Part shown: in pieces, positions 4,248 through 57,562 of the stretch
Layout: each line of letters opens with the position of its first letter
Position numbering within the stretch: the first letter of the stretch is position 1
DNA from: Octopus vulgaris
Taxonomy: Eukaryota
Direction of reading: 5' to 3'
Length of the DNA: 64,000 bases
Assembly (NCBI GenBank): GCA_951406725.2
Contig: OX597820.1
Span: forward strand, 70,742,001 to 70,806,000
Notes under the pieces: model-generated
The model's database searches: none
What the model saw: only the letters and a program-made list of their open reading frames with translations
What the model was told of the DNA's origin: nothing
Program-made: the position numbers and the translations under genes

Positions 4248-4450
4248 CGAGACGTACTTGCATAGCAAGTGACCTGATGTGAGATCGTGTGCTGGAACGA
4301 AAATAATTGCAGCGTGGAAGGTGTTTATAAGCCATTTAAGAAGCACACAAAAACCAATAGATTCACTTCAACATTTAAATTTTATTTGCCAAAATATTTT
4401 CGTCGCTTTGAAACTGCGACCTGTTCACTGACAAAATTCCGTGCTGCATC
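4246..4450 (-). mobile_element. ~205-bp (TA)n-anchored HHR-bearing element (G3:C8 family)
   Basis: Near-identical to 43512-43716 and 43385-43513; 3' end abuts (TA)n. Confidence 0.85.
4385..4435 (-). ncRNA. Minimal type-I hammerhead ribozyme, G3:C8 core variant
   Basis: tttgtca-GTGAACA-g-gtcgc(agtttcaaa)gcgac-GAAA-atat-TT-tggcaaa: 7-bp stem I, 5-bp stem II, palindromic AATATT stem III. Confidence 0.7.
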
Positions 4451-8569: not shown

Positions 8570-9297
8570 AGTTCTATATTTAAGAGATGAGGAATTATGT
8601 ACATTATTTGCATTCGAAGTCCGGCTGGTATACCCTCCAGCCTTCATCAGGTGTCTTGGGAAAATTTCGAACCTGGGTTCTCATTCTTATTATTAATATT
8701 ATTATTCAGGTCACTGCCTGGAATCGAACGTCGGTATCTTGGTGTTAGTAGCTTGCGCTCTTAACCACTACCCGTCGGCAATTATGGCGTGAATTTTTAG
8801 GGCTTATAAATCTAATATTTTTCTATCCTTCCTTAATACCGGTTTCTATATGCAATTCATATCTGCACTCGGTCTACTTAGGAGGTTGTTGTGTCCTAGC
8901 GTATGTGCTGCTTCTTTTAGTTTTCGTATTTTCCAGTGGTGTTCTCTGTCTATTATTTGAATTTCATCCCATAGGGGGAGATGCTCTCCATTTTTCCATA
9001 CATGATCAGCTATACCCGATTTATCAATATCTCCTCGTGTCACATCTTTGCGATGTTCGTCTACCCTTATTTTGAGGGGGTAGCATGTTTCACCTTTGTA
9101 TAACCTTCCACTGCTACATGGGATGGAGTACATGCAATTTTTGATCATATTCTCCTCTATTGGTAGTTTTACTCGAAAGAGATATTTGTGAAGTGTTGTA
9201 TTATTCTTGAATACTGTTCTGATATCATATGGGCAGCATATCTTTTGTATTTTTTCGGAGAGGCGTTTCACATAGGGTAGACAGACTGTGGACAATG
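8570..9297 (-). mobile_element. 5'-truncated Penelope-like element: C-terminal GIY-YIG endonuclease plus 3' region
   Basis: ORF 8846-9295 VCLPYVKRLSEKI...CMYSIPCSSGRLYKGETCYPLKIRVDEHRK...SGIADHVW...RKLKEA, followed by a tRNA-like segment and a half-deleted HHR (8620-8655). Confidence 0.9.
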
Positions 9298-9304
9298 TAT
9301 TGGG

Positions 9305-9890
9305 TTCATCCTCATAGAAGAGAATAAGACCAAAAACTGCATGTACTCCATCCCATGCAGCTGTGGTAGGTTATACAAAGGCGAAACATGCCACCCCCTC
9401 AAAATAAGTGTAGAAATCGCAAATCTGTGACACGAGGAGATATTGATAAATCGGGTATAGCTGATCATGTATGGAAAAATGGAGACCACCTGCCCCTATA
9501 AGTTAAAATAATAGACAGAGAACACCACTGGAAAATACGAAAACTAAAAGAAACCGTATATATGGTAGGACACAACAACCTCCTAAGCAAACCGAGTGCA
9601 GATATGAATAACATATGGGAAGCAGATATGAATAGCATATTAAGGAAGAATAGGAAAATATTAGATTTATAAGCCCTAAAATTCACTCCATAATTGCCCA
9701 CGGGCGAGCTACTAACCCCAAGATTCCGAGTTCGATTCCAAGCAGTGACCTTAATAACAACAATAATAATATCAAAAACTTAGGAATGAGAAACCAGGTT
9801 CGAAATTTCCCCAAGACACTTGATGAAGGCTGGAGGTATATCAGCCGAAAAGTTGTGTTAACAACAAACGTCGAATGTAAATAATGTACC
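9305..9890 (+). mobile_element. Inverted second PLE copy (frameshifted GIY-YIG plus 3' region with degenerate HHR at 9815-9859)
   Basis: Reverse complement of ~8600-9165; gacac-TTGATGA-aggctg...cagcc-GAAA-agtt-gtgtt. Confidence 0.88.
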
Positions 9891-16382: not shown

Positions 16383-16449
16383 ACTTCGAAGTTTCAGCTT
16401 GCTCGCCGTCATCACTATGGTAACGGTGAGCAAGCTGAAACTTCGAAGT
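16383..16449. repeat. Near-perfect hairpin, 27-bp stem and 13-nt loop
   Basis: acttcgaagtttcagcttgctcgccgt / acggtgagcaagctgaaacttcgaagt (one G-U pair). Confidence 0.9.
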
Positions 16450-17505
16450 CATTTTTCATTGCAAAAGGGAATTCGCACACGTGCGCGCGCACGCACACAT
16501 ACATTTATGCATATACACATACATCACCCACGCACGTACACACGTATACATTTACACATAAACACACACACATGTTCACACACACATACAGACACATACC
16601 AACAGGTATTCTTATAGCACTCTCTTTCTATTAAAACCACAATTACCCTTCCAGCTTCTGTTTAGTCAGCGGTCGAACATGTTAAGATAACCCACACGCA
16701 TTTTCCCCTGGGTCTTTTCTTCCATGTCTCTTCCTGGATTTTCTTGTGGTGTCTGATGAAGGACTATGTCCCAAACGTTATAGTTTATAACCTATTTCCT
16801 TCTTTGTGTGTCTACCTAAGAATAGTATTATATTCCCTTGAACTTTTTTTTCTCTTTATCTTATATATATAATACAGTCTACATTTAGACACATTAAGAG
16901 GTTTCCATCATAGGACTCCCTTACGCTAGAAGGAACAGCTAAAGTCCAAACCACTAATTAGGGATAAATTCTCGAAGGGAATGAAAAATAAAAACATTTA
17001 CCATCTATTTCCTGGACCATGGTTTCTGACTTATTTTAGCAATAATAATTTTATGAATAATATATTGTCTATTGACTAATTTTTCTATACGCGAGGCCAC
17101 TGGTAGTAAAAATTTCTAAAATCTTTATAAACCCTCCTCGAAGTCACTGTCAATAATATTTTTATTAAAGAATAATATTTATGTTCTCTACAATACTACG
17201 GAGTAACTATTTATATTAATGTAAAATTGTTTTTTTATTATAACTGAACATAAAAACAATTAGTATGTGTATGCATGCATGTATGTATGTATGTATGTAT
17301 GTATGTATGTATGTATATATGTATGTATGTAGAGTCGGACCTAAGGAGGAGACTGAGAGGCACATGCCCCACTCACTAAAAGAAATGCGCCCTTATGAAT
17401 GTTATTACACCCTTTTCTCTGGGAATTGTATTCCTTTCTGTCCTTGTGCACTCCCTTCGAAAACTTCCTAGGACCGCGCCTGGTATGTATGTATGTATGT
17501 ATGTA

Positions 17506-43387: not shown

Positions 43388-43716
43388 AATTGTAGCGTGG
43401 AAGGTGTTTATAAGCTATTTAAAAACACACAAAAACCGTTAGATTCACTTCAACATTTAAATTTAATTTGCTAAAATATTTTCGTCGCTTTGAGACCGCG
43501 ACCTGTTCACTGATGCTGCACGGAATTTTGTCAGTGAACAGGTCGCGGTCTCAAAGCGACGAAAATATTTCGGAAATTAAATTTAAATGTTTGAAGTGAA
43601 TCTAACGGTTTTTGTGTGTTTCTTAAATGGCTTATAAACACCTTCCATGCTGCAATTATTTTCGTTCCAGCACATGTCTCAGATCAGGTCACAAGCTATG
43701 CAAGTACATCTCCGTA
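43385..43716. mobile_element. Head-to-head inverted pair of the G3:C8 HHR element between (TA)n tracts
   Basis: Minus copy 43385-43513, plus copy ~43512-43716; both keep GTGAACAG-gtcgc...gcgac-GAAAATATTT. Confidence 0.88.
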
Positions 43717-55900: not shown

Positions 55901-56607
55901 CTGAAGCTATGTTATTTCCCACATTAATCAAGTACAATAAATAATAGTGAGAAACATGACCTCCCAGAATTAAAATTAAATTCTGAGATGTCGGTAATTT
56001 GGAATTTACTGAGTGGGGCATGAATGGAAGATTTTGGCAAGTGATAACTTTTTTATTTAGTTATCGAAGCCGTTTGCATTATTTCTTCCGACTCCTTATT
56101 CTATGAATTCAAATCACACCAAGTTCAACTTTGCCTTTCTTCCAAGCTCGGGGCCATAAAACAAAGTACCACCCAAGTACTGGTGTCCGGTGGTGTCTAC
56201 TGACCTTCCTCTCCTCGAAATATCTGCCTTGTGCCCAAAATATCATTCCTTAGTTTACTACTTTTAGACATTGGACTGGGACCATGGTGGGGTACTGGTC
56301 TCAGGGGTTTGTGTAAAACATGTTGAGCCAAGTAGTTATTCTAGCCTCATACTTATTACGCCATTTTTACAATGAAATGTTTTTTACACGTGTAAACATA
56401 AATACACTTTCATATACTATATATATATATATCGAAGCATTGGCGCAAAACAGTGTTTAGGTATGAGTAGAATTTAGGGTAGTTGAAATATATGTTTGTC
56501 ACATATTTCAACTGCTAAAAGGCAAATAAACTGTAGTTACCGTGGGGAAATTTTTCTCTTGTGGTAACAAGATGTGAAAACACCCGGTTCGTGCAGAACT
56601 GTTAAGA

Positions 56608-56656
56608 ATCTCAGACATCGATGTTTCGAGTTTTATTTTATTCTTGTCAATGAGAT
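56608..56656 (-). ncRNA. Type-I hammerhead ribozyme, U3:A8 core variant
   Basis: atctca-TTGACAA-gaat(aaaataaa)actc-GAAA-catcgatg-TC-tgagat; sister copies have gagt, restoring stem II. Confidence 0.7.
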
Positions 56657-56678
56657 GTACCTAAGAGAGACAATTCTG

Positions 56679-56995
56679 TTCTATATTTAAGAGATGAGGA
56701 ATTATGTACATTATTTATATTTGATGGATATTTCTCCTCATCTTCTTTGTTGTTAACACAACGTTTCGGCTGATATACCCTCCAACCTTCATCAGGTGTC
56801 TTGGGGAAATTTCGAACCTGGTTTCTCACTCCTAAAGTATTTTTCATTGTTATTATTATTATTATTATTATTATTCAGGTCACTGCCTGGAATTGAACTC
56901 GGAATATTAGGGTTAGTAGCCCGCGCACTTAAGCACTACGCTATATGCCCACGGGCATATGGCGTAGTAGTTAATGCAAATGATGTAAATAATGT
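56679..56995 (-). mobile_element. tRNA-like head plus HHR module (PLE 3' region) with 13-bp TSD
   Basis: AGAGACAATTCTG at 56666-56678 and 56996-57008; tRNA-like 56878-56950; same sequence as the PLE 3' ends at 8570-8800 and 9690-9890. Confidence 0.85.
56755..56800 (-). ncRNA. Minimal type-I hammerhead ribozyme, intact core
   Basis: gacac-CTGATGA-a-ggttg(gagggtatat)cagcc-GAAA-cg-TT-gtgtt; loopless palindromic ACGT stem III. Confidence 0.8.
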
Positions 56996-57562
56996 AGAGA
57001 CAATTCTGAACGGACTTAATAAACCTGTAGCTTTATATATAATTCAGTCAACACGTTGAGTGATTTGCACTAGTAGATCACCTGACCAAGGTAAATAACG
57101 ATGCATTGCGCAAAGCAGTGTTTCGGTATGAGCAGAATTTAGGCTAGTTGAAATATGTTTGTCACTTGTTTCAACTGCTAAAAAAACAAATACACTGCAG
57201 TTACTGTGGAGAAATATGTCTCTTATGGTAAAAAGGTGTGAAAACACCCAGTTCGTTCAATGTCACCATCTGTTAGGAATCTCAGACATCGATGTTTCGT
57301 GTTGTTTTACTCGGGCGATCTACGAGTGTAAATCAGTCAACGTTTTGACAGAATTATATATAAAGCTGCCTCTCTTAGGCACATCTCATTGACAAGAGTC
57401 AAAAGACATCGATGTCTGAGATTCCTAATAGATGGCAACACTGAATGAATTAAGTGTTTTCACACCTTTTTACGATAAGAGAGATTTTTCTCCATGGTAA
57501 TTGCTGTGTATTCGCCTTTTAGCAGTTGTAATACGTGACAAACATTTCAAATAACCTAAATT

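What the first reader, a model, noticed from the sequence alone, without database searches (positions are those of the whole stretch)
56608..56656. Hammerhead with a U3:A8 core in a second, unrelated family
Seen: atctca-UUGACAA-gagu/acuc-GAAA-caucgaug-UC-ugagau. UUGACAA recurs at 57389-57395, and the GUC triplet, 6-bp stem I and 10-nt palindromic stem III are present. With the canonical and G3:C8 families, three different 3:8 pairings occur in one 64-kb window. Inference: this is covariation evidence of selection for catalysis while the elements were mobile.
Basis: partly seen in the sequence, partly recalled or inferred. Interest (0 to 1): 0.74.

Follow-up and report, generated by a model that had tools for sequence, protein, structure and literature searches.

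The report
Decayed U3:A8 hammerhead in Penelope-type repeat
This is a worn copy of a small non-coding jumping repeat whose predicted self-cutting RNA motif has a U-A core pair instead of the usual C-G; that swap is shared by the whole repeat family but was already published for this kind of element, and cutting is untested.

Summary
The motif is real (minus strand, 56656-56608). U3:A8 is a family trait: 44 of 52 genome copies found with the core left free, and 18 of 20 found by a flank alone. The family is a ~340-nt ORF-less unit with Penelope-type footprints: partial tandems, an inverted 5' piece, a fixed 3' end on (TA)n. No coding partner was found. This copy is decayed: its stem II is not the 'gagu/acuc' quoted, and both neighbouring motifs are broken. 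It is not new: U3-A8 in Penelope hammerheads is in Cervera and de la Pena 2014, and this scan noted the same three pairings elsewhere in this genome. Limits on 'selection for catalysis': no 3:8 covariation inside this family; about a third or more of its copies were likely inserted with U4C; a 6,501-hit family has U4C; a coding Penelope family amplified a U3-G8 wobble; and copies read through the predicted cut. Likely a slow, dimer- or protein-assisted ribozyme under loose constraint.

The parts
56608..56656 (-). Type I minimal hammerhead motif, U3:A8 core, stem II damaged (A.C mismatch, lengthened loop); predicted cut between 56614 and 56613
   Evidence: dimer fold 6.5 kcal/mol above the best fold
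56644..56650 (-). Core strand U3 U4 G5 A6 C7 A8 A9 (U3 = 56650, A8 = 56645)
   Evidence: sequence directly
56615..56624 (-). 10-nt palindrome A15.1 to U16.1, predicted intermolecular stem III
   Evidence: self-duplex -12.9 kcal/mol, no hairpin alone
56425..56678 (-). 3' part of the family-A insertion: -63 to +194 relative to the predicted cut, ending at the family's usual 3' end next to (TA)n
56679..56995 (-). Later 317-bp insertion of another, far more abundant repeat, carrying a canonical C3:G8 minimal hammerhead at 56755-56800; flanked by a 13-bp duplication (56666-56678 = 56996-57008)
56996..57312 (-). Upstream tandem unit of family A (-28 to +290): 3' half of a hammerhead only (57279-57298), tail and spacer
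57311..57562 (+). Inverted (head-to-head) 5'-truncated family-A piece with two deletions; its hammerhead (57383-57421) keeps TTGACAA but lacks the 3' strand of stem II and the GAAA box; ends next to (TA)n

Best explanation
The motif is a decayed genomic copy of a minimal type I hammerhead carried once per ~340-nt unit by a non-coding repeat that was likely copied into the genome by a Penelope-like element's enzyme; U3:A8 is fixed in the family and likely kept the 3:8 core pair of a slow ribozyme predicted to work as a dimer or with protein help. Shown: motif, family-wide U3:A8, unit length, tandem and inverted layout, fixed 3' end on (TA)n, no ORF next to the copies examined. Inferred: tandem transcripts paired their 10-nt palindromes to form stem III and cut after GUC; the reverse transcriptase started at an internal site about 185-195 nt after the cut and copied an uncut multimer or a re-ligated circle; selection acted only on source elements and only loosely; inserted copies, this one included, then decayed neutrally.
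For: U3:A8 in 44 of 52, 29 of 32 BLAST-found and 18 of 20 spacer-found copies; no C:G copy among 107. Stem II fourth pair T-A 70 / C-G 17 and stem I third pair T-A 64 / T-G 31 / C-G 5 among 107 copies. Same-strand hammerhead spacing 338, 339, 352 and 358 nt in four loci; unit 340 nt in L006. 3' ends of 36 of 52 pieces fall at +150 to +199, 13 more run on into a next unit, and 5' ends are scattered. This layout matches the published PLE footprint (PMC8557442 passages) and internal priming at AT-rich targets (PMC11167929). 11 of 11 hits in 1 Mb have a Watson-Crick 3:8 pair. A separate RT + GIY-YIG Penelope family (family B; Pfam PF00078 and PF01541) carries a U3:A8 motif just after its ORF. Intact family-A copies fold to the dimer at or within about 2 kcal/mol of the best fold in 11 of 17 cases.
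Against: No cleavage data. No autonomous partner: PLE-protein hits near family-A copies (L014, L034/L293, L271, L287) belong to separate insertions where inspected (L014, L287, L293; L271 lies on the other strand and was not inspected). Only 1 of 52 pieces starts within 5 nt of the predicted cut, so no footprint of cleaved linear templates. U4C, reported to lower activity considerably in vitro (PMC3088659), was amplified in this family (C at position 4 in 15 of 52; 9 of 20). In PAc, ribozyme-dead mutants still insert in vitro.
Confidence: 0.72

Rival explanations
1. The copies are only 5'-truncated stubs (pseudo-LTR ends) of an autonomous Penelope-like element whose coding copies are rare, lost or were missed; no separate non-autonomous RNA exists.
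For: Other families here are such stubs (family B). My own-genome DNA searches scored only 40 candidates each.
Against: The unit closes on itself: the 3' end runs straight into the spacer and the next hammerhead in many independent loci. No family-A copy was contiguous with PLE coding sequence in the 98 + 30 loci tested, which include repeats of the same locus.
Confidence: 0.15
2. The fold is kept for a reason other than cutting (protein recognition, packaging, or an RNA motif that merely rides along), so the 3:8 pair reflects shape or descent rather than catalysis.
For: Mobile U4C and U3-G8 lineages. Templates were copied through the cut site. Insertion does not need cleavage in vitro and no RNA ends were seen at the cut (PMC11167929). 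PMC8557442 says HHR function is unclear and HHRs may parasitise PLEs.
Against: The 3:8 pair forms in the active conformation and is absent from minimal ground-state structures (PMC3884650 passage). It is complementary in three different ways across non-alignable families, which descent alone does not explain.
Confidence: 0.1
3. Chance resemblance or neutral drift of a dead motif.
For: This copy is damaged and a looser descriptor gives spurious hits in this AT-rich window.
Against: 52 vs 0 control matches; compensatory stem changes; 11 vs 0, 1, 0 hits.
Confidence: 0.03

Closest known systems
Minimal type I hammerheads (min-HHR) of metazoan Penelope-like elements, including the U3-A8 variant of Schistosoma mansoni (Cervera and de la Pena 2014, PMC4209133; parts 1-2 of 4 of the text read, supplement file 2 searched by terms, file 1 not available)
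   Same: Type I topology, palindromic helix III, G10.1-C11.1, scattered truncated copies, opposite-strand pairs 100-700 bp apart, U3-A8 core (about 1,300 hits reported in S. mansoni; the supplement aligns a UUGAAAA PLE motif beside a similar CUGAAGA one from S. japonicum).
   Different: Family A has a 6-bp stem I, a 4-bp stem II with no extra base after A9, and a long 10-nt palindrome; no coding element was found; a large minority of copies also carries U4C.
Metazoan non-LTR retrozymes (PMC7229834, passages; bioRxiv 10.64898/2026.07.22.740005, part 1 of 5 read)
   Same: Non-coding ~340-nt unit with one type I hammerhead per unit, head to tail, low GC; proposed to derive from PLEs.
   Different: Only partial tandems and dimers seen, no long arrays; copies are old (about 80-85% identical); circular RNA not tested.
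Natural U3:A8 hammerheads (Perreault et al. 2011, PMC3088659, passages)
   Same: C3-G8 covarying to U3-A8 in nature; such pairs cited there as active in vitro; U4C cited as a natural low-activity viroid variant.
   Different: Here the variants sit in multi-copy animal retroelements, and U3:A8 is combined with U4C in one subfamily.
Poseidon PLE PAc of Anolis (PMC11167929, second half of main text and passages read)
   Same: Fixed internal 3' start, AT-rich targets, templates copied uncut, 3:8 pair needed for cleavage.
   Different: PAc is autonomous with a canonical core; its ribozyme cleaved only with protein present.

Membership tests
PLE-type minimal type I hammerhead | Core boxes N3 U4 G5 A6 N7 N8 A9 / GAAA / UH with a complementary 3:8 pair | tested here: met
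   Window copy complete; complete in 47 of 107 copies with U4, 58 of 107 allowing C4
PLE-type minimal type I hammerhead | Stem I closing the motif and stem II opened by G10.1-C11.1 | tested here: met
   Family level, with compensatory changes; the window copy keeps only 2 contiguous stem II pairs
PLE-type minimal type I hammerhead | Palindromic helix III allowing a dimer | tested here: met
   10-nt palindrome, duplex -12.9 kcal/mol; dimer folds
PLE-type minimal type I hammerhead | Extra nucleotide between A9 and 10.1 (common; optional in the published descriptor) | tested here: not met
   A9 is followed directly by G10.1 in family A; descriptor allows 7-8 nt
PLE-type minimal type I hammerhead | Self-cleavage after NUH | not testable with these tools
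   Needs an in vitro assay; only contigs were available for expression
Penelope-like element (autonomous) | RT + GIY-YIG ORF contiguous with the terminal repeat | tested here: not met
   None contiguous in the loci tested; searches were samples, not exhaustive
PLE-mobilised insertion | 5' truncation, partial tandem, inverted 5' piece, fixed 3' end, microsatellite target | tested here: met
   against the description in PMC8557442
Non-LTR retrozyme | Non-coding 150-450-nt head-to-tail unit with one type I hammerhead each | tested here: met
   338-358-nt spacing, 340-nt unit
Non-LTR retrozyme | Multimeric arrays of complete units | tested here: inconclusive
   At most two same-strand motifs per locus seen; the window has none intact in tandem
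Non-LTR retrozyme | Expressed as monomeric linear and circular RNA | not testable with these tools
   No raw RNA reads served

The most novel reading that the evidence does not exclude
This genome preserves a natural mutational walk of the hammerhead core in mobile lineages: C3:G8 to U3-G8 to U3:A8 inside one coding Penelope family, and U4C in two unrelated families (one with 6,501 exact hits; in family A stacked on U3:A8, where it removes a rival UUGAC/GUCAA hairpin). If the wobble and U4C forms cut much more slowly yet spread, Penelope hammerheads are selected to be slow or protein-gated, and these natural variants give a ready panel for the open question of what the ribozyme does in the Penelope cycle.
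Probability: 0.35. Interest if true: 0.5.

Novelty: new member of a known kind. Interest (0 to 1): 0.27.

Why it matters
As reported, little: it adds one more family to a variant published in 2011 and 2014. Its practical value is that descriptors fixed on CUGANGA miss U3:A8, G3:C8 and U4C families (8 of the 11 hits in my 1-Mb sample). The amplified intermediates (U3-G8, U4C) are natural test molecules for whether Penelope hammerheads need to cut fast, or at all.

Tried and rejected
Rfam scan of the window: no hit. L014's GIY-YIG neighbour as the autonomous partner: rejected; that family (B) has its own, different 3' repeat and only 1 of 19 other loci held any family-A sequence. PLE ORFs near L287 and L293: separate insertions. 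A LINE that seemed to target the family-A hammerhead: rejected as family-specific; only 2 of 27 rows sit in family A, and many land on TC-rich words. Trees of family A and family B were spoiled by non-homologous flanks and are not used; only the diagnostic-site table is. Pile-up of 5' ends at the predicted cut: not seen. Expression: no RNA holder listed; contigs laid cannot show ends or level, and no piece spans the locus. ARAGORN found no tRNA in the 317-bp insert. Lunse et al. on PLE hammerhead dimers, Przybilski and Hammann 2007 and Ambros and Flores 1998 are not held; they are cited only through other papers, and Lunse et al. may already list U4C, G3:C8 or U3-G8 variants. One look-up by a wrongly recalled id gave an unrelated paper.

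Full report
1. Observation. The motif lies on the minus strand, 56656-56608: atctca TTGACAA gaataaaataaaactc GAAA catcgatg TC tgagat. Stem I has 6 Watson-Crick pairs, the triplet is GUC, and A15.1 to U16.1 is a 10-nt palindrome. U3 is 56650 and A8 is 56645. The + strand TTGACAA at 57389-57395 is real, but that copy has lost the 3' strand of stem II and the GAAA box. A canonical C3:G8 motif (56755-56800) and a G3:C8 motif (4385-4435) are in the window. A further copy of the canonical family at about 9815 reads U3-G8, which shows how single copies decay. Rfam finds none of them.

2. Local anatomy. Mapped on a natural copy (L006), the locus is one complex insertion. A minus-strand run goes from 57312 (28 nt before a predicted cut) through one whole unit to 56425 (194 nt after the next cut), ending beside (TA)n. 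It is interrupted by a later 317-bp insertion with a 13-bp duplication; that insert carries the canonical hammerhead. Head to head with it is a plus-strand piece, 57311-57562, with two deletions, also ending beside (TA)n. No intact tandem partner is left. The window motif's dimer fold is 6.5 kcal/mol above its best fold, so this copy is probably inactive (inference).

3. The family (A). The host genome has 2.8 Gb in 227 contigs; that it is an octopus is my inference from size and repeats and from earlier scan notes, not from a call. A DNA search gave 55 matches from 40 scored of 1,316 candidates, the long ones at 74-84% identity. None fell in a 1-Mb arbitrary sample, so the family likely has hundreds to a few thousand copies. 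The unit is 340 nt in L006, with same-strand motif spacings of 338-358 nt in four loci. Of 52 pieces found by the tail alone, 36 end at +150 to +199 from the cut, 13 run into a next unit, and 3 end earlier. Their 5' ends are scattered: 32 start upstream of the cut and only 1 lies within 5 nt of it. This is the published Penelope footprint (PMC8557442, passages) and fits internal priming at AT-rich targets on an unprocessed RNA (PMC11167929). No coding partner was found: PLE-protein hits near four copies were separate insertions in the three inspected.

4. Is U3:A8 a family trait? Yes. With all seven core letters, GAAA and UH free, 52 exact matches (reversed control 0) gave U:A 44, U-G 4, U:U 2, C:A 1, G:A 1. 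BLAST-found copies gave 29 of 32, and copies found by the spacer alone 18 of 20. Among all 107 copies held, partly selected on the core and so biased, 93 are U:A and none is C:G. Stems covary between subfamilies: stem II fourth pair T-A 70, C-G 17; stem I third pair T-A 64, T-G 31, C-G 5. These count copies, not events. Inside the family 3 and 8 are lost independently (0.846 vs 0.851), so selection can only be read at the level of source elements.

5. In 100 arbitrary 10-kb stretches a descriptor with 3 and 8 free found 11 motifs: 7 C:G, 2 U:A, 2 G:C, none mismatched. Three shuffles gave 0, 1 (G:A) and 0. One U:A hit is AT-rich and weak, and the 11 hits stand for about six families. By family, from hand counts of the first 100 rows listed: G3:C8 family, 88 of 100 paired, 2,199 hits; CCGACGA family, 92 of 100 C:G, 6,501 hits; family B, 80 U:A, 10 U-G, 5 C:G, 3 C:A, 2 U:U, 132 hits. 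Family B is a coding Penelope-like element (RT PF00078, GIY-YIG PF01541) with the motif just after the ORF. In it 3 and 8 are associated (Fisher p = 0.006 after collapsing same-event rows; related copies are not independent). Among 35 copies compared, all 5 C:G copies share one flanking haplotype, the 10 U-G copies split 5 and 5 between that haplotype and the one common in U:A copies, and the 3 C:A copies look like decayed U:A. That fits a stepwise C:G, U-G, U:A path, but several U:A copies are mosaic, so order is not shown.

6. Results against a strict reading. U-G copies outnumber C:G copies in family B and are too many for non-CpG decay at an assumed 6% rate, so a wobble source element was likely mobile. 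Position 4 is C in 15 of 52 and 9 of 20 family-A copies. Head-to-head pairs that differ C/T there (L207, L280, L287, L290) show CpG decay, so a third or more of copies were probably inserted with U4C. The 6,501-hit family has C4 in 84 of its first 100 rows (hand count). U4C is cited as considerably lowering activity in vitro while sufficing in a viroid (PMC3088659). In family A, U4 with GAGUCAA allows a rival hairpin about 2 kcal/mol better than the dimer, while in the three C4/GAGUC copies the dimer is the best fold; this is a prediction on 17 copies only. In PAc, C3G and G8C stop cleavage and the double mutant partly rescues, yet insertion is unaffected and cleavage needs protein.

7. Mechanism. 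Most likely (0.72): a non-autonomous, retrozyme-like derivative copied by a Penelope enzyme from an uncut multimer or a circle, with a slow dimer- or protein-assisted hammerhead kept under loose selection in source copies. Shown: anatomy and family statistics. Inferred: cleavage, dimerisation, the enzyme and the template form.

8. Novelty. U3-A8 in Penelope minimal hammerheads, about 1,300 hits in S. mansoni, is in PMC4209133, and its supplement lists such motifs. Natural U3:A8 covariation is in PMC3088659. My searches for 'U3-A8 / G3-C8 / C3-G8', 'U4C', 'hammerhead ribozyme + octopus' and core-variant terms found no paper on natural G3:C8, or on amplified U3-G8 or U4C, in retroelements. The library is partial, Lunse et al. 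could not be read, and supplement file 1 of PMC4209133 was unavailable. Verdict: a new member of a known kind, interest 0.27.

Noticed in passing
G000 pattern hits; L059-L078, L296-L315: Coding Penelope family B holds C3:G8, U3-G8 and U3:A8 cores in one family, the wobble form amplified and bridging two haplotypes.
   Followed up: partly
L229-L238; 6,501 exact hits: Abundant repeat with a minimal hammerhead whose core is CCGACGA (U4C) in 84 of the first 100 rows.
   Followed up: partly
window 4385-4435 (-), about 43430-43580; L219-L228: G3:C8 family, 2,199 exact hits, 88 of the first 100 rows paired; often head to head. In L020 one follows a family-A 3' end directly.
   Followed up: partly
window 56679-56995; related copies at about 8570-8770 and 9700-9870: Very abundant repeat with a canonical minimal hammerhead, preceded by a segment that looks like a tRNA-type SINE head by eye (ARAGORN negative); inserted in family A with a 13-bp duplication.
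   Followed up: partly
L218:3226-4300, L217:5960-6560, L216:5850-6500; L239-L265: A LINE-like element (possibly Tx1 type, recalled label) whose 3' end tends to land on TCTCT words; two copies, plus a related one at L028/L216, sit in stem I of the family-A hammerhead with a ~17-bp duplication.
   Followed up: partly
L115:2167 (-): A further U3:A8 minimal hammerhead (TTGACAA core, different stems) that does not align with family A.
   Followed up: no
window 16395-16450: Long near-perfect palindrome with GAAACTTCGAAGT at both ends; not examined.
   Followed up: no
L293:1020-1100: End of another PLE with CTGATGA and a distant GAAAC that does not fit the plain type I layout; may be the rearranged hammerhead reported in earlier scan notes.
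   Followed up: no
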